Below, in pieces: positions 11,980 through 55,357 of a stretch of 64,000 nucleotides of DNA (within the stretch, counting starts at the first letter, position 1; each line of letters starts with the position of its first letter). Source of the DNA: Escherichia coli. Its GTDB lineage: Bacteria; Pseudomonadota; Gammaproteobacteria; Enterobacterales; Enterobacteriaceae. The stretch lies in the NCBI RefSeq assembly GCF_044647545.1, contig NZ_CP172818.1. One strand, 5' to 3'. The notes under the pieces were generated by a model that saw nothing but the letters and a program-made list of their open reading frames with translations, was not told the origin of the DNA and did no database searches. A program made the translations under genes and the position numbers.

Positions 11980-11991
11980 GTCTGAAAACAA

Positions 11992-14283: not shown

Positions 14284-14485
14284 AACCTCGTCAGATGTTG
14301 TGTTCTTGTTAGCAACCGCGCTCTGTGGGCGGTTTAGTCAGGTTCACATTATGAGTACTGATGCAAAGAAATCCTGCACCTCAGAGTTATTTGGCAGGTG
14401 TGCCCACTTTTTCATACAGTGGGTGCCCTGAAAATCAATGTACACATCATGCATAATGTGACAACGTCACAAAAGTTAGTGAAAT

Positions 14486-14516
14486 GAAAAAGGGCAACTG
14501 TTCGGGCCGTTGCCCT
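14486..14516 (-). terminator. intrinsic terminator downstream of paaZ
   Basis: GGGCAAC..GTTGCCC hairpin followed on the minus strand by a T5 run. Confidence 0.6.
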
Positions 14517-14527
14517 TCATTCACCGA

Positions 14528-16563: not shown

Positions 16564-16792
16564 CGCTACTCTCCAGATGTTTCACATTTATGTTGCTAAT
16601 AGTTAAATTGCGAATCATAAAAAGCAAGGGTTCTTTTAACGAAATGTTAACTATGCAAATATGTATCACAACTGCGGAAAACATTAATGCACTGATAAAT
16701 AATGATTTATAAAAAATCGGGTGCGAAATCCGTCACAGTTCAAGCATACAAAATTTGTGATTTTAGTTAACCATTGTGTAACTTTCATAAAC

Positions 16793-16834
16793 AATGTGAT
16801 TCGTGTTTTTAATTAATTCGCGAACTTGGAATCG
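16793..16834. promoter_or_regulatory. PaaX-type operator half-site in the paaZ-paaA divergent promoter region
   Basis: AATGTGATTCGTGTT at 16793-16807 fits the PaaX box consensus WWTRTGATTCGYGWT as I remember it; an imperfect inverted partner GAATCG lies 26 nt downstream. Confidence 0.45.
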
Positions 16835-16847
16835 TAAAGGTAATAAC

Positions 16848-17773: not shown

Positions 17774-17784
17774 GGAGATTCAAA

Positions 17785-18069
17785 ATGAGTAATGTTTATT
17801 GGCCGTTATACGAAGTTTACCCGTTCGTGGCAAACAGGGCTTATCACACCGCCATGTTGGCAGTTTTTACATGCTGCCGATGAGCGGATGGCACTGAAAA
17901 TGCCGGTGATTGTTACACCGTCGTAGCGAAGGATGTTCAATTTGGGTGGTGAAGGCGAGTGAAATTGTTGCCTCGCAACCGGAAGAACGCGGTGAATTTT
18001 TTGATCCGGCTGAAGCAAGGTCTATCGCCATCCAACGTTTTACACCATCCCTGATGGCATTCAACATGA
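17785..18069 (+). pseudogene. paaB: epoxidase subunit B, frameshifted
   Basis: ATG at 17785 with MSNVYWPLYEV N-terminus; body recovered in a shifted frame (17910-18149 ...SEGCSIWVVKASEIVASQPEERGEFFDPAE...). Expected 95 aa; 3' end approximate. Confidence 0.65.
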
Positions 18070-18077
18070 GGTCGGAA

Positions 18078-18820
18078 ATGAATCAGTTAACGGCTTACAC
18101 CTTCGCCTGGGCGATAACTGCCTGGTGCTTCCAGCGGTTGGGTGAATAGTGCGGTCATGCACCGGAACTGGAAATCGATCTCGCACTGGCAAATATTGGA
18201 CTCGATTTATTAGGCCAGGCACGCAACTTCTTATCGTATGCCGCTGAATTAGCGGGAGAAGGCGATGAAGATACCCTGGCCTTCACCCCAACAAGCACCA
18301 GTTCAGCAACTTATTGTTGGTTGAACAGCCAAACGGCAATTTTGCCGACAACCGTCGCCAGTATTTCATCGATGCATGGCATGTGGCGCTCTTTACCATT
18401 CTGATGGAGAGCCGTGATCCGCGACTGGCGGCGATTTCTGCAAAGCGATTAAAGAAGCGCGTTATAGCCTGCGTTTTATTCGTGGCTGGCTGGAGCAACT
18501 GGGCAATGGTACTGACGTATACGGGCGAAAGAATGCCAGCAGGCCATCAACAAGTTGTGGCGTTTTACCGCCGAACTGTAGATGCCGACGAGATTGATAT
18601 TGCACTGAGTGAAGAGGGTATTGCGGTTGATCCACGCGCTTTTACGCGCAGCGTGGGAAGCCGAAGTTTTTGCCGGGATCAACGAAGCCACATTCAACGT
18701 ACCGCAGAGCAGGCGTATCGCACTGGCGGTAAAAAAGGACTGCATACCGAACACCTTGGACCCATGCTGGCAGAAATGCAGTTATTGTTTGAGCGTGTCT
18801 TGCCCGGTCAGCAATGGTAA
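18078..18820 (+). pseudogene. paaC: epoxidase subunit C, frameshifted
   Basis: Start MNQLTAYT at 18078; C-terminal portion in ORF 18314-18820 ends ...LPGQQW*; span 743 nt, not a multiple of 3, versus 747 expected (248 aa). Confidence 0.7.
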
Positions 18821-18834
18821 CAGAGGAGGTGGGT

Positions 18835-19325
18835 ATGCAACGTATCAGCCACCATTCCGCCGCCACAGGTTCATCCAGATATGGGCGCTACTGGGCGCGA
18901 TCCCGGACCGGAGATCCCGGTGCTGACCATTACCGATTTAGGCATGGTGCGTAATGTGACACAGATGGAAAGAATGGGTGATCGGCTTTACGCCGACTTA
19001 TTCCGGTTGTCCGGCAACGGAACGTTGATTGGCGCGATACGTGAGGCAATGACAACCCACGGGTTTACCCGTACGGTTGTGCTGCAACTCGACCCGGCAT
19101 GGACCACCGACTGGATGACCCCCGATGCCCGTGAGCGTCTGCGACGGTATGGCATTAGCCCGCCCGGCCGGAACAGTTGCCGGCCCATTTGCCGCCAGAA
19201 GTACGTTGCCCGCGCTGCGCCAGCGTCCATCCACACTTATCAGTGAATTTGGTTCCACGGCCTGCAAAGCATTGTACCGCTGCGATAGTTGCCACAAACC
19301 TTTCGATTATTTCAAATGTATTTGA
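18835..19325 (+). pseudogene. paaD: epoxidase subunit D, frameshifted
   Basis: ATG at 18835; fragments 18881-19246 (IPVLTITDLGMVRNVTQM...) and 19125-19325 (...CDSCHKPFDYFKCI*) in different frames. Confidence 0.7.
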
Positions 19326-19332
19326 GGATGCC

Positions 19333-20397
19333 ATGACAACGTTTCATTCCTTAACAGTGGCAAAAGTGGGCCCGGAAACCCGTGATGCGGTGACCATTAC
19401 CTTTGCATGCAGCCTTTGCAGGAGGCGTATCACTTTCGCCCCGGTCAACATTTGACCTTAAAAGCCAGTCTTGATGGTGAAGAATTAGCCATTGTTCTCC
19501 ATTTGCCGCAGCTACCTGCCTGGCGAAATTAGTGTGGCGGTGAAAGCCATTGAAGGCGGACGTTTCTCCCGCTATGCCCGCGAACACATCCGCCAGGGTA
19601 TGACGCTGGAGGTCATGGTGCCGCAGGGGCATTTCGGCTATCAGCCACAGGCCGAACACCAGGGCCGCTATCTGGCTATTGCAGCAGGATCAGGTATTAC
19701 GCCAATGCTGGCGATTATCGCCACCACTTTCAAACCGAGCCTGAAAGTCAGTTCACCCTGATCTACGGTAACCGTACCAGCCAGAGCATGATGTTTCGCC
19801 AGGCACTGGCAGACCTGAAAGACAAATATCCTCAGCGTTTACAGTTGTTGTGCATTTTCAGTCAGGAAACCCTCGACAGCGATCTGCTTCACGGGCGTAT
19901 TGACGGTGAAAAATTACGTGGCTTGGGGCCTCGCTCATTGATTTTTCGTCTTTATGATGAGGCGTTTGCTTTGTGGTCCGGCGGCGATGATGGATGAGAC
20001 GGAAGCCGCCTTAAAAGCACTGGGAATGCCAGATAAAACCATTCATCTGGAGCGGTTTAATACGCCTGGCACGCGCGTCAAAGCGTCGCGTTAACGTGCA
20101 AAGTGACGGACAAAAGTGACTGTACGTCAGGATCGGCGGGATCGGGAAATCGTGCTTAATGCCGACGATGAAAGCATTCTCGATGCGGCATTGCGCCAGG
20201 GGGCTGATCTGCCCTATGCCTGCAAAGGCGGCGTCTGTGCGACCTGCAAATGCAAAGTGCTGCGTGGCGAAGTGGCGATGGAAACCAATTACAGTCTGGA
20301 ACCGGATGAACTGGCCGCAGGTTATGTGTTGAGTTGCCAGGCACTGCCGCTGACCAGCGATGTGGTGGTTGACTTTGACGCGAAGGGGATGGCATCA
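19333..20397 (+). pseudogene. paaE: epoxidase reductase subunit E (ferredoxin-NADPH reductase), frameshifted and stop codon lost
   Basis: Start MTTFHSLTVAK at 19333; fragments 19492-19761 and 20116-20406 (2Fe-2S motif CKGGVCATCKCK) in different frames; the expected overlapping TGA stop reads TCA at 20395-20397. Confidence 0.7.
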
Positions 20398-21172
20398 GCG
20401 AACTGATCGTCAGCCGTCAGCAACAGGTGCTTGCTGCTGACCCTTAACCGTCCCGCCGCACGTAATGCGCTGAGAATAATGCCCTTCTGACGCAACTGGT
20501 AAATGAACTGGAAGCTGCGGCTACCGATAGCAGCATTTCGGTCTGTGTGATTACCGGTAATGCACGCTTTTTTGCCGCTGGGGCCGATCTCAACGAAATG
20601 GCAGAAAAAGATCTCGCGGCCACCTTAAACGATACACGTCCGCAGCTATGGGCGCGATTGCAGGCCTTTAATAAACCACTTATCGCAGCCGTCAATGGTT
20701 ACGCGCTTGGGGCGGGTTGCGAACTGGCATTGTTGTGCGATGTGGTGGTTGCCGGAGAGAACGCGCGTTTTGCGTTGCTTTTTACAGGAAATCACTCTCG
20801 GCATCATGCCAGGCGCAGGAGGAACGCAACGTTTAATCCGTAGTGTCGGTAAATCGTTAGCCAGCAAAAATGGTGCTGAGCGGAGAAAGTATCACCGCTC
20901 AGCAAGCACAGCAGGCCGGGCTGGTTAGCAACATCTTCCCCAGCGATTTAACCCTCGAATACGCCTTACAGCTGGCATCGAAAATGGCACGTCACTCGCC
21001 GCTGGCCTTACAAGCGGCAAAGCAAGCGCTGCGCCAGTCGCAGGAAGTGGCTTTGCAAGCCGGACTTGCCCAGGAGCGACAGTTATTCACCTTGCTGGCG
21101 GCAACAGAAGATCGTCATGAAGGCATCTCCGCTTTCTTACAAAAACGCACGCCCGACTTTAAAGGACGCTAA
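20394..21172 (+). pseudogene. paaF: 2,3-dehydroadipyl-CoA hydratase (enoyl-CoA hydratase), start codon lost and frameshifted in the 5' two-thirds
   Basis: N-terminus reads I-SELIVSRQQ with ATC in place of ATG at 20394-20396; frame breaks near 20775 and 20850; last 100 codons (20870-21172) intact, ending ...RTPDFKGR*. Expected 255 aa. Confidence 0.75.
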
Positions 21173-21960
21173 TGATGGAATTCATCCTCAGTCATGTAGA
21201 AAAGGGCGTGATGACACTAACGCTCAACCGCCCGGAACGCCTGAACAGTTTTAATGATGAGATGCACGCACAACTGGCAGAGTGCCTGAAACAGGTCGAG
21301 CGCGACGACACTATCCGTTGCCTGTTACTTACAGGTGCCGGGCGCGGATTTTGTGCTGGTCAGGATCTTAACGATCGTAACGTTGATCCCACAGGCCCCG
21401 CACCGGATTTAGGGATGTCAGTTGAACGTTTCTATAACCCACTGGTACGTCGCCTGGCAAAACTGCCAAAACCGGTGATCTGTGCAGTCAATGGCGTGGC
21501 GGCAGGGGCAGGCGCAACACTGGCACTGGGGGGCGACATCGTTATTGCTGCCCGTTCAGCAAAATTCGTCATGGCGTTTAGTAAGTTAGGCTTAATACCC
21601 GATTGCGGTGGAACCTGGTTACTGCCACGCGTTGCCGGACGAGCGCGCGCCATGGGGCTGGCACTGCTGGGGAATCAACTGAGTGCTGAACAGGCGCACG
21701 AATGGGGGATGATCTGGCAGGTTGTTGATGATGAAACGCTGGCAGATACCGCGCAACAGCTGGCACGGCATCTGGCGACACAACCGACATTTGGTCTTGG
21801 ACTTATCAAGCAAGCGATAAATAGCGCTGAAACCAATACGCTCGATACGCAACTGGATCTGGAACGTGACTATCAGCGACTTGCCGGACGGAGCGCAGAT
21901 TATCGTGAAGGTGTCAGTGCGTTCCTGGCTAAACGCTCACCGCAGTTCACGGGGAAATAG
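21172..21960 (+). CDS. paaG: 1,2-epoxyphenylacetyl-CoA isomerase (crotonase fold), 262 aa
   Basis: Intact 262-aa ORF MMEFILSHVEKGVMTLTLNRP...; start overlaps paaF stop by 1 bp. Confidence 0.9.
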   Translation: MMEFILSHVEKGVMTLTLNRPERLNSFNDEMHAQLAECLKQVERDDTIRCLLLTGAGRGFCAGQDLNDRNVDPTGPAPDLGMSVERFYNPLVRRLAKLPKPVICAVNGVAAGAGATLALGGDIVIAARSAKFVMAFSKLGLIPDCGGTWLLPRVAGRARAMGLALLGNQLSAEQAHEWGMIWQVVDDETLADTAQQLARHLATQPTFGLGLIKQAINSAETNTLDTQLDLERDYQRLAGRSADYREGVSAFLAKRSPQFTGK

Positions 21961-21961
21961 C

Positions 21962-23389
21962 ATGATGATAAATGTGCAAACTGTGGCAGTGATTGGGAGC
22001 GGCACCATGGGGGCAGGCATTGCTGAAGTTGCTGCCAGTCATGGACACCAGGTTTTACTGTATGACATTTCTGCTGAAGCGCTGACCCGCGCAATCGACG
22101 GGATACACGCGCGGCTAAATTCACGCGTGACGCGGGGAAAACTGACTGCTGAAACCTGTGAACGCACATTGAAACGCCTGATCCCGGTGACCGATATTCA
22201 CGCGCTGGCAGCTGCGGACCTGGTCATTGAAGCGGCGTCTGAACGTCTGGAAGTCAAAAAAGCGCTCTTTGCACAGCTGGCGGAAGTTTGCCCGCCACAA
22301 ACGCTATTGACCACTAACACTTCGTCAATCTCTATAACCGCGATTGCTGCGGAGATAAAAAATCCTGAACGTGTTGCGGGGCTGCATTTTTTTAACCCGG
22401 CACCGGTGATGAAGTTGGTGGAGGTGGTCAGTGGGCTGGCAACGGCGGCGGAAGTTGTTGAGCAGTTGTGTGAACTAACGTTGAGTTGGGGTAAGCAGCC
22501 TGTGCGCTGTCATTCGACTCCTGGATTTATCGTTAACCGTGTTGCGCGTCCTTATTATTCCGAGGCCTGGCGGGCACTGGAAGAGCAGGTTGCTGCACCA
22601 GAAGTGATTGACGCTGCACTTCGCGATGGCGCTGGTTTCCCGATGGGGCCGCTGGAATTAACCGATCTGATTGGTCAGGACGTCAATTTTGCTGTCACCT
22701 GTTCGGTGTTTAACGCTTTCTGGCAGGAGCGTCGTTTTTTACCTTCGCTGGTGCAACAGGAACTGGTGATTGGTGGACGGTTGGGCAAGAAAAGTGGGCT
22801 GGGCGTGTACGACTGGCGCGCGGAACGTGAGGCAGTTGTTGGCCTGGAAGCGGTAAGCGACAGTTTTAGCCCAATGAAAGTAGAAAAGAAAAGTGACGGT
22901 GTCACGGAAATTGACGATGTTTTATTGATTGAGACACAAGGCGAGACGGCACAGGCGCTGGCAATACGACTGGCACGCCCGGTGGTAGTGATCGATAAAA
23001 TGGCGGGCAAGGTGGTGACCATTGCTGCTGCAGCGGTGAACCCGGACTCAGCGACCCGCAAGGCCATTTATTACCTGCAACAGCAGGGCAAAACAGTGCT
23101 GCAAATTGCAGATTACCCAGGAATGCTGATTTGGCGAACGGTAGCAATGATCATCAATGAAGCCCTTGATGCGCTTCAAAAAGGCGTGGCCTCTGAACAG
23201 GATATCGATACCGCCATGCGTCTTGGGGTGAATTATCCATATGGCCCACTTGCCTGGGGAGCGCAACTTGGCTGGCAGCGAATATTAAGGCTCCTTGAAA
23301 ATCTACAGCATCACTATGGCGAAGAACGCTATCGCCCATGTTCATTGCTGCGCCAACGGGCGCTTCTGGAGAGCGGTTATGAGTCATAA
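21962..23389 (+). CDS. paaH: 3-hydroxyadipyl-CoA dehydrogenase, 475 aa
   Basis: ORF 21866-23389 trimmed to MMINVQTVAVIGSGTMGAGIA (Rossmann motif) directly after the paaG stop; 475 aa. Confidence 0.9.
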   Translation: MMINVQTVAVIGSGTMGAGIAEVAASHGHQVLLYDISAEALTRAIDGIHARLNSRVTRGKLTAETCERTLKRLIPVTDIHALAAADLVIEAASERLEVKKALFAQLAEVCPPQTLLTTNTSSISITAIAAEIKNPERVAGLHFFNPAPVMKLVEVVSGLATAAEVVEQLCELTLSWGKQPVRCHSTPGFIVNRVARPYYSEAWRALEEQVAAPEVIDAALRDGAGFPMGPLELTDLIGQDVNFAVTCSVFNAFWQERRFLPSLVQQELVIGGRLGKKSGLGVYDWRAEREAVVGLEAVSDSFSPMKVEKKSDGVTEIDDVLLIETQGETAQALAIRLARPVVVIDKMAGKVVTIAAAAVNPDSATRKAIYYLQQQGKTVLQIADYPGMLIWRTVAMIINEALDALQKGVASEQDIDTAMRLGVNYPYGPLAWGAQLGWQRILRLLENLQHHYGEERYRPCSLLRQRALLESGYES

Positions 23390-23801
23390 GGCCTGGCAAA
23401 ATGCCCATGCAATGTATGAGAACGATGCCTGCGCCAAAGCGCTTGGCATCGACATTATCTCAATGGATGAAGGCTTTGCTGTAGTGACCATGACCGTCAC
23501 TGCACAAATGCTTAACGGTCATCAAAGTTGCCACGGCGGGCAGCTATTTTCACTGGCTGATACTGCCTTTGCCTACGCCTGCAATAGCCAGGGGCTGGCA
23601 GCCGTCGCTTCTGCCTGCACGATTGATTTTTTGCGTCCAGGCTTTGCCGGAGACACCTTAACTGCTACTGCGCAGGTACGTCATCAGGGCAAGCAAACCG
23701 GTGTTTACGACATCGAAATTGTTAACCAACAACAAAAAACGGTTGCGCTGTTTCGCGGTAAATCTCACCGCATCGGCGGCACCATTACAGGAGAAGCCTG
23801 A
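23379..23801 (+). CDS. paaI: hotdog-fold acyl-CoA thioesterase, 140 aa
   Basis: ORF 23295-23801 trimmed to MSHKAWQNAHAMYEND; 140 aa. Confidence 0.85.
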   Translation: MSHKAWQNAHAMYENDACAKALGIDIISMDEGFAVVTMTVTAQMLNGHQSCHGGQLFSLADTAFAYACNSQGLAAVASACTIDFLRPGFAGDTLTATAQVRHQGKQTGVYDIEIVNQQQKTVALFRGKSHRIGGTITGEA

Positions 23802-25006
23802 TGCGTGAAGCCTTTATTTGTGACGGAATTCGTACGCCAATTGGTCGCTACGGCGGGGCATTATCAAGTGTTCGGGCTGATGATCTGGCTGCTATCCCTT
23901 TGCGGGAACTGCTGGTGCGAAACCCGCGTCTCGATGCGGAGTGTATCGATGATGTGATCCTCGGCTGTGCTAATCAGGCGGGAGAAGATAACCGTAACGT
24001 AGCCCGGATGGCGACTTTACTGGCGGGGCTGCCGCAGAGTGTTTCCGGCACAACCATTAACCGCTTGTGTGGTTCCGGGCTGGACGCACTGGGGTTTGCC
24101 GCACGGGCGATTAAAGCGGGCGATGGCGATTTGCTGATCGCCGGTGGCGTGGAGTCAATGTCACGGGCACCGTTTGTTATGGGCAAGGCAGCCAGTGCAT
24201 TTTCTCGTCAGGCTGAGATGTTCGATACCACTATTGGCTGGCGATTTGTGAACCCGCTCATGGCTCAGCAATTTGGAACTGACAGCATGCCGGAAACGGC
24301 AGAGAATGTAGCTGAACTGTTAAAAATCTCACGAGAAGATCAAGATAGTTTTGCGCTACGCAGTCAGCAACGTACGGCAAAAGCGCAATCCTCAGGCATT
24401 CTGGCTGAGGAGATTGTTCCGGTTGTGTTGAAAAACAAGAAAGGTGTTGTAACAGAAATACAACATGATGAGCATCTGCGCCCGGAAACGACGCTGGAAC
24501 AGTTACGTGGGTTAAAAGCACCATTTCGTGCCAATGGGGTGATTACCGCAGGCAATGCTTCCGGGGTGAATGACGGAGCCGCTGCGTTGATTATTGCCAG
24601 TGAACAGATGGCAGCAGCGCAAGGACTGACACCGCGGGCGCGTATCGTAGCCATGGCAACCGCCGGGGTGGAACCGCGCCTGATGGGGCTTGGTCCGGTG
24701 CCTGCAACTCGCCGGGTGCTGGAACGCGCAGGGCTGAGTATTCACGATATGGACGTGATTGAACTGAACGAAGCGTTCGCGGCCCAGGCGTTGGGTGTAC
24801 TACGCGAATTGGGGCTGCCTGATGATGCCCCACATGTTAACCCCAACGGAGGCGCTATCGCCTTAGGCCATCCGTTGGGAATGAGTGGTGCCCGCCTGGC
24901 ACTGGCTGCCAGCCATGAGCTGCATCGGCGTAACGGTCGTTACGCATTGTGCACCATGTGCATCGGTGTCGGTCAGGGCATCGCCATGATTCTGGAGCGT
25001 GTTTGA
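23801..25006 (+). CDS. paaJ: 3-oxoadipyl-CoA / 3-oxo-5,6-dehydrosuberyl-CoA thiolase, 401 aa
   Basis: Intact 401-aa thiolase ORF ([19 protein letters not shown]...CIGVGQG). Confidence 0.9.
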
Positions 25007-25032
25007 GCATATCAACCTGCGAGTACCCTACA

Positions 25033-26346
25033 ATGATAACCAATACAAAGCTTGACCCGATTGAAACCGCGTCTGTTGATGAGTTACAGGCGTTGCAAAC
25101 ACAGCGTCTGAAATGGACGCTCAAACACGCGTATGAAAATGTGCCGATGTATCGGCGCAAATTCGACGCAGCAGGCGTACATCCTGATGATTTCAGGGAA
25201 CTTTCAGACCTGCGTAAATTTCCCTGTACCACCAAACAGGATCTGCGCGACAACTATCCCTTTGACACCTTTGCCGTGCCAATGGAACAAGTGGTGCGCA
25301 TTCATGCTTCTTCGGGAACCACAGGTAAACCGACAGTTGTCGGCTATACGCAAAACGATATTGATAACTGGGCCAATATTGTAGCGCGTTCTTTGCGTGC
25401 GGCAGGGGGCTCGCCCAAAGACAAAATTCATGTTGCCTATGGTTACGGCCTGTTTACTGGTGGGCTGGGTGCGCACTATGGTGCCGAACGTCTGGGCGCT
25501 ACGGTGATCCCGATGTCTGGCGGGCAGACGGAAAAACAAGCGCAACTGATCCGTGATTTTCAACCAGATATGATCATGGTTACGCCATCTTATTGCCTTA
25601 ACCTGATTGAAGAGCTGGAGCGGCAGTTGGGCGGTGATGCCAGCGGTTGCTCGCTGCGGGTTGGAGTATTTGGTGCTGAGCCGTGGACACAGGCCATGCG
25701 TAAAGAGATTGAGCGTCGCCTGGGGATCACCGCACTGGATATTTATGGCCTGTCAGAAGTGATGGGGCCGGGGGTGGCGATGGAGTGTCTGGAAACTACC
25801 GACGGCCCAACCATTTGGGAAGATCATTTCTATCCTGAAATTGTTAATCCTCATGACGGCACACCGCTTGCCGATGGTGAACATGGCGAACTGTTATTCA
25901 CCACGCTGACCAAAGAAGCATTGCCGGTCATTCGTTACCGCACGCGTGATTTAACCCGACTGTTACCAGGAACGGCGCGGACTATGCGCCGCATGGATCG
26001 CATCAGCGGACGCAGCGATGACATGTTGATTATTCGCGGTGTAAATGTCTTTCCGTCACAACTGGAAGAAGAGATTGTCAAATTCGAACATTTATCGCCG
26101 CATTACCAACTGGAGGTGAACCGCCGGGGGCATCTTGATTCACTTTCTGTGAAAGTGGAGTTGAAAGAAAGTAGCCTGACATTGACGCATGAGCAGCGTT
26201 GCCAGGTATGCCACCAGCTGCGCCATCGGATTAAGTCGATGGTGGGGATCTCTACCGATGTGATGATCGTTAACTGTGGCAGTATCCCGCGTTCAGAAGG
26301 CAAGGCGTGTCGGGTGTTTGATCTGCGCAATATTGTTGGTGCCTGA
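25033..26346 (+). CDS. paaK: phenylacetate-CoA ligase, 437 aa
   Basis: ORF 24949-26346 trimmed to MITNTKLDPIETASVDELQALQ; adenylate-forming motif SSGTTGKPT present. Confidence 0.9.
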   Translation: MITNTKLDPIETASVDELQALQTQRLKWTLKHAYENVPMYRRKFDAAGVHPDDFRELSDLRKFPCTTKQDLRDNYPFDTFAVPMEQVVRIHASSGTTGKPTVVGYTQNDIDNWANIVARSLRAAGGSPKDKIHVAYGYGLFTGGLGAHYGAERLGATVIPMSGGQTEKQAQLIRDFQPDMIMVTPSYCLNLIEELERQLGGDASGCSLRVGVFGAEPWTQAMRKEIERRLGITALDIYGLSEVMGPGVAMECLETTDGPTIWEDHFYPEIVNPHDGTPLADGEHGELLFTTLTKEALPVIRYRTRDLTRLLPGTARTMRRMDRISGRSDDMLIIRGVNVFPSQLEEEIVKFEHLSPHYQLEVNRRGHLDSLSVKVELKESSLTLTHEQRCQVCHQLRHRIKSMVGISTDVMIVNCGSIPRSEGKACRVFDLRNIVGA

Positions 26347-26446
26347 CGTATCGTCTGGCCCTGGTGGGGTAAAGCGCCAGGGCCAGAAGTCGATACGACC
26401 TGTGCTATGATTCATAAATCACAACAATAACAACAGACTGAAGCGA

Positions 26447-27397
26447 ATGAGTAAACTTGATACTTTTATCCAACATGCTGTAAACGCTGTTCCGGTCAGT
26501 GGCACATCTTTGATCTCCTCTCTGTATGGTGATTCGCTTTCCCATCGTGGTGGTGAAATCTGGTTGGGTAGTCTGGCTGCTTTGCTGGAAGGGCTGGGAT
26601 TTGGTGAGCGTTTCGTGCGCACCGCTTTGTTTCGTCTTAATAAAGAAGGCTGGCTGGATGTTTCCCGCATCGGGCGACGCAGTTTCTATAGCCTCAGTGA
26701 TAAAGGCTTGCGCCTGACGCGACGGGCAGAAAGTAAAATTTATCGCGCAGAGCAACCTGCATGGGATGGTAAATGGCTCCTGTTGCTCTCGGAAGGTTTA
26801 GATAAATCAACGCTGGCTGATGTCAAAAAGCAGTTGATCTGGCAAGGTTTTGGCGCACTGGCACCCAGCCTGATGGCATCGCCGTCGCAAAAACTGGCCG
26901 ATGTACAGACACTTTTGCATGAAGCGGGTGTGGCGGATAACGTGATTTGTTTTGAAGCGCAAATACCACTGGCGCTTTCTCGCGCAGCACTGCGTGCCAG
27001 AGTAGAAGAGTGCTGGCATTTAACTGAACAAAATGCCATGTACGAAACCTTTATTCAGTCATTCCGCCCGCTGGTGCCGCTTTTAAAAGAGGCGGCAGAC
27101 GAGTTAACCCCGGAGCGGGCATTTCATATTCAGCTTTTACTGATCCATTTTTATCGCCGTGTCGTCCTTAAAGACCCATTGTTGCCGGAGGAGTTGCTTC
27201 CGGCACACTGGGCAGGGCATACGGCGCGTCAGCTGTGTATCAACATTTATCAGCGCGTAGCGCCTGCTGCTTTAGCGTTCGTTAGTGAAAAAGGTGAAAC
27301 CTCGGTCGGTGAATTGCCTGCGCCGGGAAGCCTGTATTTTCAACGTTTTGGCGGCTTGAATATTGAACAGGAGGCGTTATGCCAATTTATCAGATAG
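26447..27397 (+). CDS. paaX: phenylacetyl-CoA-responsive transcriptional repressor of the paa operon, 316 aa
   Basis: Intact 316-aa ORF; preceded by a TGATTC motif at 26407. Confidence 0.9.
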
Positions 27398-28038
27398 ACG
27401 GTCTGACTCCGGTTGTGCCAGAAGAGAGTTTTGTCCATCCGACAGCGGTATTGATCGGCGATGTTATTCTCGGCAAGGGCGTTTACGTTGGGCCAAATGC
27501 CAGCCTGCGTGGCGATTTTGGTCGTATCGTGGTGAAAGATAGCGCGAACATTCAGGATAATTGCGTTATGCACGGTTTTCCCGAGCAGGATACTGTCGTG
27601 GAAGAAGATGGACATATTGGTCATAGCGCTATCCTTCACGGCTGCATTATCCGCCGCAATGCATTAGTGGGAATGAACGCGGTAGTGATAGACGGTGCGG
27701 TGATTGGCGAGAACAGCATTGTTGGCGCATCCGCATTTGTGAAAGCCAAAGCAGAAATGCCAGCTAATTACCTGATTGTCGGCAGCCCGGCGAAAGCGAT
27801 TCGTGAACTCAGTGAGCAGGAGTTGGCATGGAAAAAGCAGGGTACGCATGAGTACCAGGTGCTGGTGACACGCTGTAAGCAGACGTTACATCAAGTCGAG
27901 CCATTGCGGGAAGTTGAACCTGGAGGCAGCGCCTGGTATTTGATGAGAATCTGCGACGAAACAGTAACAGATGTAAAATTATTTTGTCCCTTTAATTATA
28001 AAGCAGAGTTATGTTTAAGCTCTGCTTTATTTATTTGA
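27379..28038 (+). CDS. paaY: hexapeptide-repeat (gamma-carbonic-anhydrase-like) thioesterase PaaY, probably frameshifted near the 3' end
   Basis: ORF of 219 aa overlapping the paaX stop by 19 bp; expected 196 aa. The last ~30 codons read through a terminator hairpin, and an out-of-frame TAA at 27965-27967 sits where the native stop should be if two single-base deletions near 27925-27960 are restored. Confidence 0.7.
28001..28037 (+). terminator. intrinsic terminator after paaY
   Basis: AAGCAGAG (28001-28008) and CTCTGCTT (28020-28027) stem with 11-nt loop followed by a T-rich tail. Confidence 0.6.
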
Positions 28039-28297
28039 GTATTAATTCATACCGTTTTTTCATCATATAATTATTTATAATGAGAATGTGGTTTTAATTT
28101 GTAATTTATATTATATACACAATTTATATATTTCATGGTCTTTTTTTATTCACCTGAATTATAATTGTGAATTATAGGAAAGTATGTTTGATTAGATAAT
28201 AATCTACTGGCAATATTGGATGTCTTCTATGTTTTAAATAACTAATTGGTCGGGTTAGTGCATCCGGCTTTCTTTATATTCGCCAGAAGGATTTATT

Positions 28298-30820
28298 ATG
28301 CAAAGGAAAACTCTATTGTCGGCCTGTATTGCATTAGCTCTGAGTGGTCAGGGTTGGGCGGCAGATATCACAGAGGTAGAAACCACCACAGGTGAAAAGA
28401 AAAATACCAATGTGACTTGTCCGGCAGACCCAGGAAAACTCAGTCCGGAAGAGCTTAAACGCTTACCCTCTGAATGCTCTCCTTTAGTCGAACAAAACCT
28501 GATGCCATGGCTTTCCACAGGCGCTGCTGCGTTAATCACGGCCTTAGCCGTAGTGGAACTAAACGACGATGATGATCATCATCATCGCAACAATTCTCCA
28601 CTCCCACCGACACCCCCTGATGATGAATCAGACGACACTCCAGTTCCCCCAACTCCTGGCGGAGATGAGATAATACCGGACGATCCGGATGATACGCCTA
28701 CACCTCCCAAACCGGTTTCGTTTAATAATGACGTTATTCTCGATAAAACAGAAAAAACGTTAACTATTCGCGATTCAGTTTTTACTTATACCGAGAATGC
28801 TGACGGGACTATATCTCTGCAAGATAGCAATGGTCGTAAGGCAACGATTAATCTTTGGCAGATTGATGAAGCGAATAACACTGTTGCCCTTGAAGGGGTG
28901 AGCGCAGATGGCGCAACGAAGTGGCAATATAATCACAACGGTGAGCTTGTTATTACGGGTGATAATGCCACAGTAAACAACAATGGCAAAACCACCGTTG
29001 ACGGTAAAGATTCCACCGGTACGGAAATCAACGGTAATAACGGGAAAGTGATTCAGGACGGCGATCTGGATGTCAGCGGCGGCGGTCACGGTATTGATAT
29101 CACCGGTGACAGCGCGACGGTGGATAACAAGGGCACCATGACCGTCACCGATCCGGAGTCCATGGGTATCCAGATCGACGGTGACAAGGCCATCGTCAAT
29201 AACGAAGGCGAGAGCACCATCACCAACGGTGGCACCGGCACCCAGATTAATGGTGATGACGCCACGGCAAACAACAACGGCAAAACCACCGTTGACGGCA
29301 AGGATTCCACCGGTACGGAAATCAACGGTAATAACGGAAAAGTTATTCAGGACGGCGATCTGGATGTCAGCGGCGGCGGTCACGGTATTGATATCACCGG
29401 CGACAGCGCAACGGTGGATAACAAGGGCACCATGACCGTCACCGATCCGGAGTCCATCGGTATCCAGGTTGACGGCGACCAGGCGGTTGTTAACAACGAA
29501 GGCGAGAGCGCCATCACCAACGGTGGCACCGGCACGCAGATTAACGGTGATGACGCCACGGCAAACAACAACGGCAAAACCACCGTTGACGGCAAGGATT
29601 CCACCGGTACGGAAATTGCTGGCAATAACGGGAAGGTGATTCAGGACGGCGATCTGGATGTCAGCGGCGGCGGTCACGGTATTGATATCACCGGCGACAG
29701 CGCAACGGTGGATAACAAGGGCACCATGACCGTCACCGATCCGGAGTCCATCGGTATCCAGATTGACGGCGACCAGGCCATCGTCAATAACGAAGGCGAG
29801 AGCACTATCACCAATGGCGGCACCGGCACTCAGATCAACGGTAACGACGCCACCGCGAATAACAGTGGAAAAACCACTGTTGATGGAAAAGATTCCACGG
29901 GTACCAAAATCGCGGGCAATATCGGCATTGTAAATCTGGATGGTAGCCTGACTGTTACAGGCGGTGCGCATGGTGTTGAGAACATTGGTGACAACGGCAC
30001 GGTTAACAACAAAGGAGATATTGTTGTTTCCGATACTGGATCGATTGGCGTGCTCATCAACGGTGAGGGGGCAACAGTATCCAATACGGGTGATGTTAAC
30101 GTTAGCAATGAAGCGACAGGGTTCAGCATCACAACCAACAGTGGGAAGGTTTCGCTGGCAGGCAGTATGCAGGTTGGCGATTTCTCGACCGGGGTAGATC
30201 TTAATGGCAACAATAACAGCGTGACGCTGGCGGCAAAAGATCTAAAAGTGGTCGGGCAGAAAGCGACGGGCATAAACGTTTCTGGCGATGCGAATACAGT
30301 GAATATCACTGGTAACGTTCTGGTTGATAAGGATAAAACCGCAGACAATGCGGCGGAATATTTCTTCGATCCATCCGTGGGTATCAACGTTTACGGCAGT
30401 GATAATAACGTGACGCTGGATGGAAAGTTAACTGTTGTATCAGACAGTGAGGTTACTTCTCGTCAGAGTAATTTATTTGATGGCAGCGCAGAGAAAACGT
30501 CAGGTCTGGTTGTGATTGGCGATGGCAATACCGTTAATATGAATGGTGGACTTGAACTGATTGGAGAGAAAAACGCGCTTGCAGATGGGTCGCAGGTTAC
30601 TTCCTTGCGCACAGGATATAGTTATACCAGCGTTATTGTCGTTAGTGGTGAGTCGTCGGTATATCTGAATGGAGATACGACAATCAGCGGAGAATTCCCT
30701 CTGGGGTTTGCCGGGGTTATTCGGGTACAGGATAAAGCTTTGCTGGAAATTGGCAGTGGCGCTACGCTAACAATGCAGGATATTGACAGTTTTGAACATC
30801 TGGTGACAGTAGTACCCAGG
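28298..30820 (+). pseudogene. ydbA: autotransporter adhesin, N-terminal (signal peptide plus passenger) fragment truncated by IS2
   Basis: ORF begins MQRKTLLSACIALALSGQGWA (signal peptide), followed by a Pro/Asp-rich linker and G/T/N/D-rich beta-helix-type repeats; reading frame runs straight into the IS2 terminal inverted repeat at 30821. Confidence 0.85.
28967..29990 (+). repeat. tandem 294-bp (98-aa) coding repeats, about 3.4 copies, in the ydbA passenger domain
   Basis: Unit ATxNNNGKTTVDGKDSTGTEI.GNNGKVIQDGDLDVSGGGHGIDITGDSATVDNKGTMTVTDPES.GIQ.DGD.A.VNNEGES.ITNGGTGTQINGxD starts at about 28967, 29261, 29555 and 29848; copies 2 and 3 are about 94% identical at protein level. Confidence 0.85.
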
Positions 30821-30831
30821 TGGATTTGCCC

Positions 30832-31737
30832 CTATATTTCCAGACATCTGTTATCACTTAACCCATTACAAGCCCGCTGCCGCAGATATTCCCGTGGCGA
30901 GCGATAACCCAGCGCACTATGCGGATGCCATTCGTTATAATGCTCGAACGCCTCTGCAAGGTTCTTTGCTGCCGTTAACCCGTCTGGTTTGGGCATGATA
31001 CTGATGTAGTCACGCTTTATCGTTTTCACGAAGCTCTCTGCTATTCCGTTACTCTCCGGACTCCGCACCGCCGTGTTCTTCGGTTCAAGTCCCAACATCC
31101 GGGCGAACTGGCGTGTTTCATTAGCCCGGTAGCATGAACCATTATCCGTCAGCCACTCCACTGGAGACGACGGAAGATCGTTGCCGAAGCGGCGTTCCAC
31201 CGCTCCCAGCATGACGTCCTGTACTGTTTCACTGTTGAAGCCGCCGGTAGTGACCGCCCAGTGCAGTGCCTCACGATCACAGCAGTCCAGCGCGAACGTG
31301 ACACGCAGTCTCTCTCCGTTATCACAGCAGAACTCGAACCCGTCAGAGCACCATCGCTGATTGCTTTCTTTCACGGCCACTCTGCCTGTATGTGCCCGTT
31401 TCGATGGCGGTACAGCAGGTTTTCGCTCAAGCAACAGCGCATTCTGGCGCATGATCCGGTAAACACGTTTGGCATTGATCGCAGGCATACCATCAAGTTC
31501 TGCCTGTCTGCGAAGCAGCGCCCATACCCGACGATAACCATACGTTGGCAGCTCTCCGATAACATGGTGTATACGGAGAAGCACATCCGTATCATCAGTG
31601 TGACGACTGCGGCGGCCATCCATCCAGTCATCGGTTCGTCTGAGAATGACGTGCAACTGCGCACGCGACACCCGGAGACAACGGCTGACTAAGCTTACTC
31701 CCCATCCCCGGGCAATAAGGGCGCGTGCGCTATCCAC
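30832..31737 (-). CDS. insD: IS2 transposase OrfB (InsD), 301 aa
   Basis: 301-aa ORF with DDE integrase-core motifs; overlaps insC as expected for the programmed -1 frameshift fusion. Confidence 0.9.
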
Positions 31738-32060
31738 TTTTTTGCCCGTCCATATTCAACGGCTTCTTTGAGGAGTTCATTTTCCATCGTTTTCTTGCCG
31801 AGCAGGCGCTGGAGTTCTTTAATCTGCTTCATGGCGGCAGCAAGTTCAGAGGCAGGAACAACCTGTTCTCCGGCGGCGACAGCAGTAAGACTTCCTTCCT
31901 GGTATTGCTTACGCCAGAGAAATAACTGGCTGGCTGCTACACCATGTTGCCGGGCAACGAGGGAGACCGTCATCCCCGGTTCAAAGCTCTGCTGAACAAT
32001 TGCGATCTTTTCCTGTGTGGTACGCCGTCTGCGTTTCTCCGGCCCTAAGACATCAATCAT
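31695..32060 (-). CDS. insC: IS2 OrfA (InsC) HTH protein, 121 aa
   Basis: ORF 31695-32105 trimmed to [24 protein letters not shown]. Confidence 0.85.
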
Positions 32061-32206
32061 CTGTTCTCCAATGACTAGTCTAAAAACTAGTATTAAGACT
32101 ATCACTTATTTAAGTGATATTGGTTGTCTGGAGATTCAGGGGGCCAGTCTAAACCCCAGAACTTACTTATGCTGATTCCGGTGCGAAAATTGTTAATAAA
32201 GGTACT

Positions 32207-52624: not shown

Positions 52625-53625
52625 TCAGAGTTTGGCGAATTTTTCCAGGGTACGAATGAGTTGAGTGACGAAACCATACTCGTTATCGTACCAGGCGACG
52701 GTCTTCACCAGTTGTAAATCGCCCACTGCGGTGATTTCCGTTTGGGTCGCATCAAACACCGAACCGAAATGGCTGCCAATGATATCGGAAGAGACAATTT
52801 CTTCGTCGGTATAACCAAACGATTCGTTATCGGTTGTTGCTTTTTTAAGTGCGTTATTCACCTCTTCAGCAGTCACTTTTTTCCCCAGGATAGACACCAG
52901 CTCGGTCACTGAACCTGTTTTCACTGGCACGCGTTGCGCATGGCCTTTAAGTTTGCCGCTAAGTTCGGGGATCACCAGACCAATGGCTTTTGCCGCACCT
53001 GTAGTGTGGGGAATGATATTTTCTGCCGCTGCACGTGAAGCGCGTAAATCTTTACCTCGCGGACCATCCACCAGTGACTGAGTGCCGGTATAGGCATGAA
53101 TGGTCGTCATCGTGCCGACTTCTATTCCGAAACTGTCATGCAAGGCTTTTGCCATCGGAGCAAGACAGTTAGTGGTACAGGATGCCACGGAAACAATGGT
53201 GTCGTTGCATCCAGAGTGTCGTCATTGACGTTATAAACGATAGTTTTCATTTCACCGGCAGGGGCGGAAATCAACACCTTCTTCGCGCCAGCATCGAGAT
53301 GCGCCTGAGATTTCTCGGCGGAGGTATAAAAGCCAGTACATTCGACAATGATTTCTGCGCCTTTCGCTTTCCACGGAATATTTTTAGCCTCTTTTTCGGC
53401 GTAAACCGCGATACTTTTCCCATCAACGATAAGTGAATCTTCCGTAAAATCAACGCTCCAGGGGAACGGTCCGTAGTTTGAATCATGTTTCAGCAGGTAG
53501 GCGAGAATTTTTGGGGAAGTGAGATCATTAATAGCGACAATGTCTATGTTGCTTTTGACTTCAAGTAATCGACGCAACACCAGTCGACCGATACGACCAA
53601 AACCGTTAATACCAACTTTACTCAT
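52625..53625 (-). pseudogene. gapC: glyceraldehyde-3-phosphate dehydrogenase paralogue, split by frameshift
   Basis: Two overlapping minus-strand ORFs (53122-53625 N-terminal NAD-binding [19 protein letters not shown]; 52625-53188 C-terminal domain) together spanning one GAPDH-length gene. Confidence 0.85.
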
Positions 53626-53813
53626 GGTCTTCTCCTGTCAGGAACGTTCGGATGAAAATTGATCCTTTCCAGGCTTAGACCAGGATGGCGGGATGGGCAA
53701 TCTACATTCTTGCAGTGAAACGTAACGTACTGAAAACGGGTGAACAATATTTAATGAAATTTTAAGAAAAGCCCGTTATGTTAACGGAAAATTATGTTAA
53801 AGCAGGAAATGTT

Positions 53814-54344
53814 ATGGGAAATAAATACTCAAGGTTACAAATCAGCATTCACTGGCTGGTCTTTTTGCTGGTTATCGTAGCGTATTGCGCAATGGAGTTT
53901 CGTGGTTTCTTCCCACGTAGCGATCGGCCCCTCATCAACATGATTCATGTTTCCTGTGGCATCTCAATTCTCGTACTGATGGTGGTTCGTCTTTTGTTAA
54001 GGCTGAAATACCCAACCCCGCCGATTATACCTAAGCCAAAACCGATGATGACGGGACTGGCGCATTTGGGACATTTGGTGATCTATCTCCTGTTTATTGC
54101 GCTGCCAGTGATTGGTTTGGTGATGATGTATAACCGGGGTAACCCGTGGTTTGCGTTTGGTATGACGATGCCTTATGCATCAGAGGCCAATTTCGAACGG
54201 GTTGATAGCTTAAAGTCGTGGCATGAAACGCTGGCGAATCTGGGATACTTTGTCATCGGGTTGCACGCTGCGGCTGCACTGGCACACCACTATTTCTGGA
54301 AGGACAACACACTTCTACGCATGATGCCGCGTAAACGTTCCTGA
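53814..54344 (+). CDS. cybB: cytochrome b561, 176 aa
   Basis: ORF 53778-54344 trimmed to MGNKYSRLQISIHWLVFLLVI; four TM helices with conserved His residues. Confidence 0.9.
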   Translation: MGNKYSRLQISIHWLVFLLVIVAYCAMEFRGFFPRSDRPLINMIHVSCGISILVLMVVRLLLRLKYPTPPIIPKPKPMMTGLAHLGHLVIYLLFIALPVIGLVMMYNRGNPWFAFGMTMPYASEANFERVDSLKSWHETLANLGYFVIGLHAAAALAHHYFWKDNTLLRMMPRKRS

Positions 54345-54354
54345 AGGATATTTA

Positions 54355-54418
54355 AAGAAAACGCCTGTACTAAAACCGACCCGTGGTACAGGCGAAGAAT
54401 ACGGGTCTACATCGGAAG
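54355..54418 (-). ncRNA. rydC: RydC small regulatory RNA (Hfq-dependent), 64 nt
   Basis: Reverse complement reads CTTCCGATGTAGACCCGTATTCTTCGCCTGTACCACGGGTCGGTTTTAGTACAGGCGTTTTCTT, matching the RydC sequence as I remember it; lies in the cybB-ydcA intergenic region. Confidence 0.85.
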
Positions 54419-54588
54419 CGCCTATTATATTTATTTGTATGACAAATAAAACCATAATCCTGGTCCATACGTCCATCTGGCTTATCTTTAATCAATTCAC
54501 CCGATCTTTGATCTCATCAACGGTATCAAAATAAACCAGCGTATAACGTTCAAATCGAACATAAGATTCGATAAACCATGGAGGTTAT

Positions 54589-54762
54589 ATGAAAAAACTG
54601 GCACTTATCTTGGTTTTAGGAGCGCTTGTTTCCTTTTATGCCGATGCCGGGCGCAAACCCTGTTCTGGTTCGAAAGGGGGGATCTCACACTGTACGGCAG
54701 GCGGCAAATTTGTCTGTAATGATGGTTCTATTAGTGCATCGAAAAAAACATGCACTAACTGA
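54589..54762 (+). CDS. ydcA: small secreted Cys-rich protein, 57 aa
   Basis: ATG at 54589 with RBS GGAGG upstream; MKKLALILVLGALVSFYADA signal peptide; below the 60-aa ORF track cutoff. Confidence 0.75.
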   Translation: MKKLALILVLGALVSFYADAGRKPCSGSKGGISHCTAGGKFVCNDGSISASKKTCTN

Positions 54763-54833
54763 AGTGTAAAAGGGGTGCCATGAGAAAATGAATCTGCTAG
54801 TCAGATGCGCGGGGAAAATCCCCGCGCTTGCCC

Positions 54834-54983
<150 letters not shown>

Positions 54984-55357
54984 AGCCTTTCTCCTTGCCG
55001 GATGGCGGGTAAGAGGCTAACAAAATGGGTGCAGTACAGTTGATAGAAATATCGGTCGGGGCCTTCGTCTTTCTGATTCCCGGTTAGCCTGAAAACAGAA
55101 AGTCTCAGGCACCCGCAGGCATCCTATGAGGTTTCCTTAGGGACGAAAATAATCACTTGACGAAATTGCGTGCTGTTTTCCAGAATTTTTCGTCATTCGG
55201 TTTAGCCGTTCGTTACTCTCTTCATTCCAATGGCATTATTCTTCTCTGCCATAATTGTTGTAAAAATGTGACGCAAAGAGGTTTTTGGTCATAAGTAATT
55301 ACCGTCAAGTGCCGATGACTTTCTATCAGGAGTAAACCTGGACGAGAGACAACGGTA

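What the first reader, a model, noticed from the sequence alone, without database searches (positions are those of the whole stretch)
54355..54418. RydC sRNA on the minus strand between cybB and ydcA
RydC matches the 64-nt sequence I remember exactly and lies where expected, so it is a second control locus and suggests this part of the window is reference-like.
Basis: partly seen in the sequence, partly recalled or inferred. Interest (0 to 1): 0.3.

Follow-up and report, generated by a model that had tools for sequence, protein, structure and literature searches.

The report
RydC small RNA, confirmed and ordinary
This 64-base stretch is the well-known E. coli regulatory RNA RydC, intact with its promoter and repressor-binding site, so it is a valid control locus and not a discovery.

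Summary
Confirmed. Window 54418..54355 (minus strand) is a full-length match to Rfam RydC (RF00505): 92.5 bits against a threshold of 48. It is 64/64 identical to MG1655 rydC (b4597) and sits between cybB and ydcA as in K-12.

The family features I could test are all met:
- invariant single-stranded 5' seed;
- H-type pseudoknot, with 100% of pairs kept in 9 alleles and 4 compensatory pairs in stem 2;
- terminator hairpin plus U-tail;
- perfect TATAAT box 6 nt upstream of the start;
- a perfect 9-3-9 palindrome next to the -10 box that matches the published YieP repressor motif 15/15;
- an intact seed-binding site in the cfa mRNA leader of the closest complete genome.

The likely mechanism is the published one. 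The RNA is Hfq-bound, its 5' seed pairs with cfa mRNA at -99..-107 and masks an RNase E site, and transcription is repressed by YieP.

One correction: the surrounding DNA is not K-12-like in sequence. The flanks are 97.6% identical to K-12 and about 100% identical to ST648-type strains, so the identity of rydC reflects conservation.

In passing, the window is a composite. It has an ST648-type backbone, K-12 sequence exactly where ST648 has deletions, and a 9.7-kb stretch riddled with indels.

Novelty: already known. Interest: low.

The parts
54354..54418 (-). rydC gene. Transcript starts at C 54418. The Rfam match ends at 54355; the MG1655 annotation runs one T further, to 54354.
   Evidence: RF00505 92.5 bits, model 1-64/64; 64/64 identical to b4597.
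54408..54418 (-). Single-stranded 5' seed, RydC nt 1-11 (CUUCCGAUGUA).
   Evidence: Nt 1-12 are invariant in 9 distinct alleles from Escherichia, Salmonella-type and C. koseri-type loci. The seed is unpaired in the fold. It pairs with the cfa leader at -99..-107. The published duplex is nt 2-11 with -99..-109 (PMC4337610).
54401..54407 (-). Pseudoknot stem 1, 5' half (nt 12-18, GACCCGU).
   Evidence: All 7 pairs are standard in 9 alleles. Two pairs vary only through G-U wobbles: A13G and A35G.
54378..54384 (-). Pseudoknot stem 1, 3' half (nt 35-41, ACGGGUC).
   Evidence: Published G37C/G39C mutations here destabilise RydC (PMC4337610).
54386..54394 (-). Pseudoknot stem 2 / terminator hairpin, 5' half (nt 25-33, CGCCUGUAC).
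   Evidence: Perfect 9-nt inverted repeat I1; it is the MFE hairpin; 4 of its 9 pairs show compensatory double changes across genera.
54362..54370 (-). Pseudoknot stem 2 / terminator hairpin, 3' half (nt 49-57, GUACAGGCG).
54354..54361 (-). 3' U-rich tail (UUUUCUUU): terminator tail and contact for the proximal face of Hfq.
   Evidence: Read directly from the sequence. The Hfq contacts are published for RydC (PMC4337610).
54424..54429 (-). Promoter -10 box TATAAT, at -11 to -6 from the start. There is no recognisable -35 box.
   Evidence: Sequence. The consensus scanner finds no two-hexamer promoter, in line with the published description of a perfect -10 and no obvious -35 (PMC11340327). The box is conserved in all Escherichia and Salmonella-type loci and reads TATACT in C. 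koseri.
54430..54450 (.). Probable YieP operator: a perfect 9-3-9 palindrome, TTTATTTGT-ATG-ACAAATAAA on the + strand, directly next to the -10 box. The core is at 54433-54447.
   Evidence: Inverted repeat I2. The core ATTTGTATGACAAAT matches the published YieP ChIP-exo motif atTTGTaTGAcaAAT 15/15 (PMC7642389). It is the only match in the 64-kb window. The ATTTGT-N3-ACAAAT arms keep the same position upstream of rydC in Escherichia spp., Salmonella-type and C. koseri-type loci, while the DNA further upstream diverges. That YieP binds this exact site is inferred.
53814..54344 (+). cybB (cytochrome b561), convergent with rydC. Its stop codon lies 10 nt from the RydC 3' end.
   Evidence: ORF; annotation in MG1655 and ST648.
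54589..54762 (+). ydcA (57-aa secreted protein of unknown function), divergent from rydC. It shares the intergenic region that holds the YieP site.
   Evidence: ORF; annotation. ydcA is listed among YieP ChIP-exo targets (PMC7642389).

Best explanation
This is the genuine, intact rydC gene.

Shown here: it is a full-length member of the RydC family. It has an invariant unpaired 5' seed, a pseudoknot made of stems nt 12-18/35-41 and nt 25-33/49-57, a hairpin-plus-U-tail terminator, a perfect -10 box, and a palindrome matching the YieP motif directly next to that box. The seed's target site in the cfa leader is intact in the closest complete genome.

Taken from published experiments on the identical E. 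coli sequence, and not retested here: the ~64-nt transcript is bound by Hfq, with the U-tail in the proximal face. The pseudoknot and Hfq together make the RNA stable. [quoted passage not shown] This stabilises the mRNA and raises cyclopropane fatty acid synthase, which changes membrane lipids and acid resistance. RydC weakly represses trpE and pheA. Transcription is kept low by the GntR/FadR-family repressor YieP and is relieved indirectly by FnrS. [quoted passage not shown]

Inferred: YieP acts by occupying the 21-bp palindrome that spans -12 to -32, which would block RNA polymerase.
For: - Rfam RF00505: 92.5 bits against a gathering score of 48, full length.
- 64/64 identity to MG1655 b4597 and the same cybB/rydC/ydcA/hokB/trg arrangement.
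- The 64-mer is single-copy in 5411 of 5426 E. coli genomes.
- Pseudoknot: 144 of 144 cells form standard pairs in 9 alleles, against 26-47% when the partners are slid. Four stem-2 pairs have changes on both sides; stem 1 varies only by wobbles.
- The seed duplex falls on cfa -99..-107, across the published RNase E cut at G-100/A-99 (PMC6755755; PMC4337610). That site is unchanged in ST648, ST131 and the most divergent E. coli allele.
- TATAAT lies at -11..-6 (PMC11340327).
- The palindrome matches the YieP ChIP-exo motif 15/15, is unique in the window, and keeps its position across three genera.
- YieP represses rydC 20-fold in E. coli and 7.5-fold in Salmonella (PMC11340327).
- yieP is present in 5424 of 5426 E. 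coli genomes.
Against: - Nothing in the sequence argues against it.
- Expression, Hfq binding and regulation cannot be shown from DNA.
- The nested-only MFE fold is not better than shuffles (z = -0.48), as expected when half of the structure is a pseudoknot.
- Stem 1 has no compensatory changes, so its support here is conservation plus published mutagenesis.
- The consensus scanner calls no sigma-70 promoter because there is no -35 box.
- The YieP motif was not found upstream of yieP itself with up to 2 mismatches, so the motif alone does not explain all reported YieP regulation.
Confidence: 0.97

Rival explanations
1. The rydC stretch is not the sample's own sequence but K-12 reference carried over by whatever process built this composite window, so it says nothing about the source organism.
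For: Other parts of the window are K-12-identical fill exactly where the ST648 lineage has deletions. The 194 nt at 54249-54442 are identical in K-12 and in ST648-type strains, so they cannot be told apart.
Against: The block 36916-64000 is continuous with ST648 and differs by only 2 mismatches in 27 kb. The nearest informative sites on both sides of rydC (54248, 54443) carry the ST648 allele, not the K-12 allele. Natural ST648-type genomes contain this exact 1.6 kb.
Confidence: 0.02
2. The sequence is RydC, but it is silent or functionless in this genome, with only its sequence conserved.
For: RydC is barely detectable in wild-type E. coli under standard growth because of YieP repression (PMC11340327). 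This allele has a perfect operator, which could repress even more tightly than in K-12.
Against: The promoter, seed, both stems, the tail and the cfa target site are all intact. The seed and stems are held invariant or compensated across genera, which indicates selection for function. Repression is a regulatory state and is not the same as loss of function.
Confidence: 0.02
3. The element is only the terminator of cybB, or part of a small protein gene (the 53-aa ORF at 54315-54476, minus strand), and is not an sRNA.
For: The hairpin lies 10 nt after the cybB stop codon. An ATG-initiated 53-aa ORF spans the interval on the same strand.
Against: The U-tract follows the hairpin on the minus strand only. 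On the cybB strand the hairpin is followed by AAGAAUA. The ORF starts 58 nt upstream of the mapped transcription start, in DNA that is not conserved even within Escherichia. Salmonella-type RydC also has two single-base insertions that would shift the reading frame. The variation seen is RNA-like (paired compensatory changes), not codon-like.
Confidence: 0.01

Closest known systems
RydC of E. coli K-12 MG1655 (b4597; Rfam RF00505)
   Same: Identical over 64/64 nt, with the same strand, neighbours, -10 box, start site and terminator.
   Different: Only outside the RNA. The operator position -25 (window 54443) is G on the rydC strand, which makes the palindrome perfect; K-12 has A there, giving 14/15 to the YieP motif. 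Three more SNPs lie further upstream (54462, 54464, 54486). The window's 54-nt promoter/operator form is the majority one in E. coli, found in 3936 of 5415 genomes, and it is shared with E. albertii, E. whittamii and the cryptic-clade species. The K-12 form is therefore the derived one.
RydC of Salmonella enterica, the form used for the Hfq co-crystal and cfa studies (L060 and L063 are Salmonella-type by gene context)
   Same: Same seed, same stem 1, same fold, same cybB-adjacent position, same TATAAT box and the same ATTTGTCATACAAAT operator core.
   Different: It is 66 nt long, with one extra base in loop 1 and one in loop 3. The top three stem-2 pairs are swapped by compensatory changes (U-A, A-U, C-G become C-G, G-C, U-A). 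The upstream neighbour is a SAM-methyltransferase gene instead of ydcA.
ArrS and CpxQ, the other sRNAs acting on the long cfa 5' UTR
   Same: [quoted passage not shown] ArrS uses an overlapping binding site (PMC6755755).
   Different: They are unrelated in sequence, locus and biogenesis. ArrS is antisense to the gadE leader, and CpxQ is processed from the cpxP 3' UTR and represses cfa. Neither is in this window.

Membership tests
RydC (Rfam RF00505) | Covariance-model score at or above the curated gathering score, over the full length | tested here: met
   92.5 bits against 48, model 1-64/64, E = 5e-17. The K-12 locus scores the same 92.5 bits.
RydC (Rfam RF00505) | Conserved, unpaired 5' seed CUUCCGAUGU | tested here: met
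   Nt 1-12 are invariant in 9 distinct alleles from three genera. The seed is unpaired in the MFE and centroid folds.
RydC (Rfam RF00505) | H-type pseudoknot: stem 1 (nt 12-18/35-41) interleaved with stem 2 (nt 25-33/49-57) | tested here: met
   100% of 144 cells form standard pairs, against 26-47% in the slid controls. Stem 2 has 4 pairs with changes on both sides. Stem 1 has 5 invariant pairs and 2 wobble-only pairs, so it is supported but has no compensatory evidence here. The sample is small (9 alleles, 3 genera).
RydC (Rfam RF00505) | Rho-independent terminator hairpin with a 3' U-rich tail (Hfq proximal-face ligand) | tested here: met
   A 9-bp perfect hairpin followed by UUUUCUUU. Physical binding to Hfq is published for this RNA (PMC4337610) but was not tested here.
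RydC (Rfam RF00505) | Conserved genomic position: convergent with and directly downstream of cybB | tested here: met
   The same holds in Salmonella-type L060 and C. koseri L056, as published (PMC11340327).
RydC (Rfam RF00505) | [quoted passage not shown] | tested here: met
   TATAAT at 54429-54424, 5 nt before C 54418. This agrees with PMC11340327. Promoter activity itself was not tested.
RydC (Rfam RF00505) | Seed complementarity to the cfa long 5' UTR at the RNase E site (-99..-109) | tested here: met
   A 9-bp duplex between nt 3-11 and cfa -99..-107. Extended pairing gives -19.5 kcal/mol, against a shuffled mean of -14.4; 23 of 1000 shuffles do as well. The site is identical in ST648, ST131, N96 and K-12. 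cfa itself lies outside the window.
RydC (Rfam RF00505) | Expression as a ~64-nt Hfq-dependent RNA that activates cfa | not testable with these tools
   Rests on published work with the identical sequence (PMC4337610, PMC6755755, PMC11340327).
YieP regulon (GntR/FadR-family repressor) | Palindromic site matching the ChIP-exo motif atTTGTaTGAcaAAT in the promoter | tested here: met
   15/15 match at 54433-54447, inside a perfect 9-3-9 palindrome. It is the only match in 64 kb, and the arms are conserved across three genera. Occupancy of this exact site by YieP is inferred; rydC and ydcA were reported as ChIP-exo targets.

The most novel reading that the evidence does not exclude
The 21-bp perfect palindrome next to the rydC -10 box is the YieP operator. 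[quoted passage not shown] The laboratory reference K-12 carries a derived G-to-A change in that operator (window 54443), shared by about a quarter of E. coli genomes. If so, rydC repression and its release, and through them cfa and membrane cyclopropanation, could be set differently in K-12 than in most natural E. coli, including this lineage.
Probability: 0.3. Interest if true: 0.25.

Novelty: already known. Interest (0 to 1): 0.07.

Why it matters
As a control, this locus shows that the scan can place a 64-nt sRNA to the exact base, and that this end of the window is natural, unrearranged E. coli chromosome. It also shows a limit of such controls: an exact match to a highly conserved sRNA says nothing about which strain the surrounding DNA comes from. 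A small practical point comes out of the promoter analysis. The published YieP motif can be pinned to one palindrome next to the rydC -10 box, and K-12 carries the minority, imperfect version of it.

Tried and rejected
1. A genome-contig scan with CTTCCGATGT-N11-CTTCGCC found rydC only in six Escherichia genomes, plus about 47 chance hits in unrelated phyla.
2. A metagenome scan designed to exclude Escherichia returned only four C. koseri-type loci and one Salmonella-type locus, with no Klebsiella or Enterobacter forms. The covariation sample therefore stays at 9 alleles from 3 genera.
3. The cybB neighbourhoods of C. rodentium, Enterobacter, Klebsiella grimontii and one unnamed contig contain no RydC. 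This agrees with the published relocation of rydC in some genera.
4. The consensus promoter scan found nothing, which the missing -35 box explains.
5. Nested-only folding gives z = -0.48, which is uninformative for a pseudoknot.
6. The scanner flagged a terminator-like hairpin inside RydC at 54393-54379. I rejected it because it competes with both pseudoknot stems and loses a pair in the Salmonella allele.
7. I rejected the 53-aa same-strand ORF at 54315-54476; the reasons are given under the rival explanations.
8. The YieP motif was not found within 480 bp upstream of yieP in K-12 with up to 2 mismatches.
9. My duplex pairs RydC C4 with cfa G-100 and C5 with G-101, whereas PMC6755755 describes the compensatory pair as RydC C4G with cfa G101C. 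I treat this one-base offset as a numbering difference and did not resolve it.

Full report
**Observation**

Read on the minus strand, window 54418..54355 is CUUCCGAUGUAGACCCGUAUUCUUCGCCUGUACCACGGGUCGGUUUUAGUACAGGCGUUUUCUU. A scan of the whole window against Rfam 15 places RydC (RF00505) on exactly these coordinates and this strand. The score is 92.5 bits against a gathering score of 48, E = 5e-17, and all 64 model positions are matched.

MG1655 annotates rydC (b4597) at 1491442-1491506 between cybB and ydcA. The window's 64 bases are identical to it, and the 65th annotated base (T) is also present at 54354. The same 64-mer is single-copy in 5411 of 5426 complete E. coli genomes. It is exact in 4063 of them, and 1346 have one to three differences.

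**Context**

The order is gapC pseudogene, cybB (53814-54344, +), rydC (-), ydcA (54589-54762, +), yncP, hokB (54834-54983, -) and trg (55358-, +). This matches both MG1655 and the ST648 genome NZ_CP008697.1.

The sequence, however, is not K-12. Over 2177 aligned bases around rydC there are 52 mismatches and 5 indels (97.6% identity), while 53700-55300 is 100% identical to a set of ST648-type strains. No mismatch to K-12 falls between 54249 and 54442. At the local divergence of 52 in 2177, a 194-nt clean stretch has a chance of about 0.01 (my arithmetic). This fits purifying selection on the end of cybB, rydC and its core promoter.

**Anatomy of the RNA**

Nt 1-11 are unpaired and form the seed. 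The nested fold finds only the 9-bp hairpin of nt 25-33 with nt 49-57, followed by UUUUCUU(U), which is the terminator. Nt 12-18 can pair with nt 35-41, which lie inside the loop of that hairpin, and this gives the published H-type pseudoknot.

I tested that structure on nine distinct alleles:
- the window/K-12 form;
- two E. coli variants (A13G, and strain WL297 with A13G, U20C, C22U and A35G);
- E. albertii, E. whittamii and a divergent "E. coli" species cluster;
- a Salmonella-type locus and two C. koseri-type loci.

All 144 pair cells are standard pairs, against 26-47% when the 3' partners are slid by one to three columns. Four of the nine stem-2 pairs change on both sides. Stem 1 is invariant apart from two G-U wobbles. 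Stem 1 therefore has no compensatory support here. Published G37C/G39C mutations in it cut the RNA's half-life from more than 32 min to about 2 min (PMC4337610). Nt 1-12 are invariant in every allele.

**Promoter and operator**

TATAAT lies at 54429-54424, ending 5 nt before the start at C 54418. There is no -35 match, and the consensus scanner accordingly reports nothing. This is how the promoter is described in PMC11340327.

Directly next to the -10 box is a perfect 9-3-9 inverted repeat at 54430-54438 and 54442-54450. Its core ATTTGTATGACAAAT equals the YieP ChIP-exo motif atTTGTaTGAcaAAT at all 15 positions, and that study lists rydC and ydcA among the YieP targets (PMC7642389). It is the only match to ATTTGT-N3-ACAAAT in the 64 kb, even allowing one mismatch.

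Upstream of rydC the ATTTGT-N3-ACAAAT core keeps the same position in five further Escherichia loci, in Salmonella-type loci and in C. koseri-type loci, where the central triplet is inverted. The E. coli E69 locus has the K-12-type A in the left arm. The DNA further upstream is unrelated between genera.

YieP represses rydC 20-fold in E. coli and 7.5-fold in Salmonella (PMC11340327), and yieP is present in 5424 of 5426 E. coli genomes. I infer that this palindrome is the YieP operator and that a bound dimer blocks RNA polymerase. That step is not shown.

K-12 has A instead of G at the position corresponding to window 54443, which breaks one arm pair. The window's exact 54-nt promoter and operator is found in 3936 of 5415 genomes, against 1479 with one or two differences.

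**Target check**

cfa is not in the window, so I used MG1655 and the ST648 genome. The seed (nt 3-11) forms a 9-bp duplex with cfa UACGUCGGA at -107..-99. This spans the RNase E cut between G-100 and A-99 reported in PMC6755755 and matches the published duplex of nt 2-11 with -99..-109. The site and its surroundings are identical in K-12, ST648, ST131 and the most divergent E. coli allele found.

**Mechanism**

Shown here:
- family membership;
- seed, fold, terminator and promoter intact;
- operator motif present;
- target site present in the lineage.

From published experiments on the same sequence:
- Hfq binds the U-tail on its proximal face, and the RNA needs both Hfq and the pseudoknot for stability.
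- Pairing with the long cfa isoform blocks RNase E decay and Rho termination and raises CFA synthase.
- trpE and pheA are weakly repressed.
- YieP, FnrS (acting through yieP) and OmrB (a sponge) set RydC level and activity.

Inferred: YieP occupies 54430-54450.

**Rivals**

- Reference carry-over is unlikely. The informative SNPs on both sides are ST648-type, and the 27-kb block containing rydC differs from ST648 by two bases.
- A terminator-only role for cybB is unlikely, because the U-tract is on the rydC strand only.
- The 53-aa ORF over the interval begins upstream of the transcription start in non-conserved DNA, and the Salmonella insertions would shift its frame.

**Seen in passing**

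The window as a whole is colinear with K-12 1437074-1501108 at 97.6% identity, but it is a composite.
- It equals ST648 at 1-9505, 27242-27968 and 36916-64000.
- ST648 naturally lacks feaR-to-paaX and ydbA. The window carries those segments as K-12 sequence with essentially no differences, including K-12's IS2D and IS30C insertions in ydbA.
- Between about 11.2 and 20.9 kb that K-12 template carries roughly 3.5% substitutions and 189 indels. Most indels are 1-2 nt, they split about evenly between insertions and deletions, and only six are multiples of three.
- As a result feaB, tynA, paaZ and paaA-F are all broken. No complete E. coli genome matches window 9300-21800, which contains this stretch, better than 96.3%.

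This looks like reference-guided fill-in or deliberate degradation and not natural sequence. I did not pursue it further.

**Verdict**

This is a correct identification of a well-characterised sRNA, useful as a control. It is already known and of low interest. The one thing worth carrying forward is the operator allele difference between K-12 and most E. coli.

Noticed in passing
window 1-64000 (blocks 1-9505, 9506-27241, 27242-27968, 27969-36915, 36916-64000): The window is a composite. It has an ST648-type backbone (100%, 99.6% and 99.99% identity in the three matching blocks). K-12 MG1655 sequence fills exactly the segments that the ST648 genome lacks: feaR-paaX and ydbA, including K-12's IS2D and IS30C insertions. 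This looks like reference-guided fill-in or an engineered splice, not a natural chromosome.
   Followed up: partly
window ~11200-20900: A K-12-derived stretch with about 3.5% substitutions and 189 indels (152 of 1 nt, 30 of 2 nt; 100 deletions and 89 insertions; only 6 are multiples of 3). feaB, tynA, paaZ and paaA-F are all shattered, and the largest ORF is 200 aa. Window 9300-21800, which contains it, has a best match of only 96.3% among 5426 complete E. coli genomes.
   Followed up: partly
window 30800-30820: A cluster of 8 differences from K-12 near the ydbA/IS2D junction (my coordinate estimate), inside an otherwise K-12-identical block. This may be a seam of the composite.
   Followed up: no
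window 54978-55114 (-), with gaps at 55023-55036 and 55200: The hokB/mokB/sokB locus lacks about 15 nt in the mokB/sokB overlap and 9 nt further on, relative to K-12. Its Rfam 'sok' (RF01794) score is 72 bits, against 110 in K-12 and 109-114 in other Escherichia. HokB has R instead of K-12's H at residue 3 (from the SNP at 54976; the K-12 residue is recalled from memory). This is the natural ST648-type allele. The Rfam 'sok' hit lies on the hokB mRNA strand, not on the strand annotated as sokB in MG1655.
   Followed up: partly
window 45-160 (+): MicC sRNA (RF00121): 105.7 bits against a gathering score of 90, full length. It sits at the position expected from K-12, upstream of ydbK/nifJ.
   Followed up: no
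window 54355-54418; RefSeq records H16-H27: PGAP-annotated RefSeq genomes list no feature under rydC ('none'). Among the records examined, only the curated MG1655 record annotates it. Absence of annotation in the E. coli genome collection is therefore not evidence that the gene is absent.
   Followed up: no
L064 (metagenome contig OATL01003055.1), ~70 nt upstream of its rydC: A C. koseri-type rydC whose left YieP-operator arm is replaced by unrelated sequence following a terminator-like hairpin. Only ...CAGCAAAT remains before the TATACT box. This is a natural variant that may escape YieP repression.
   Followed up: no
window 54345-54354; L056 ~3032-3067: In E. coli the cybB stop codon is 10 nt from the RydC 3' end, and cybB has no intrinsic terminator of its own on the + strand, so cybB transcripts may read antisense through rydC. 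In C. koseri a separate GC hairpin with a T-tract (CCCCGCGTAATGCGGGGTTTCTTTT on the cybB strand) sits between the two genes.
   Followed up: no
window 53122-53625 (-): gapC is a frameshifted pseudogene here, as in K-12 and ST648. The 167-aa N-terminal ORF ends prematurely.
   Followed up: no
E. coli genome collection: Five of the roughly 5400 rydC matches are on records labelled as plasmids. These are probably mislabelled chromosomal fragments or large chromosomal inserts.
   Followed up: no
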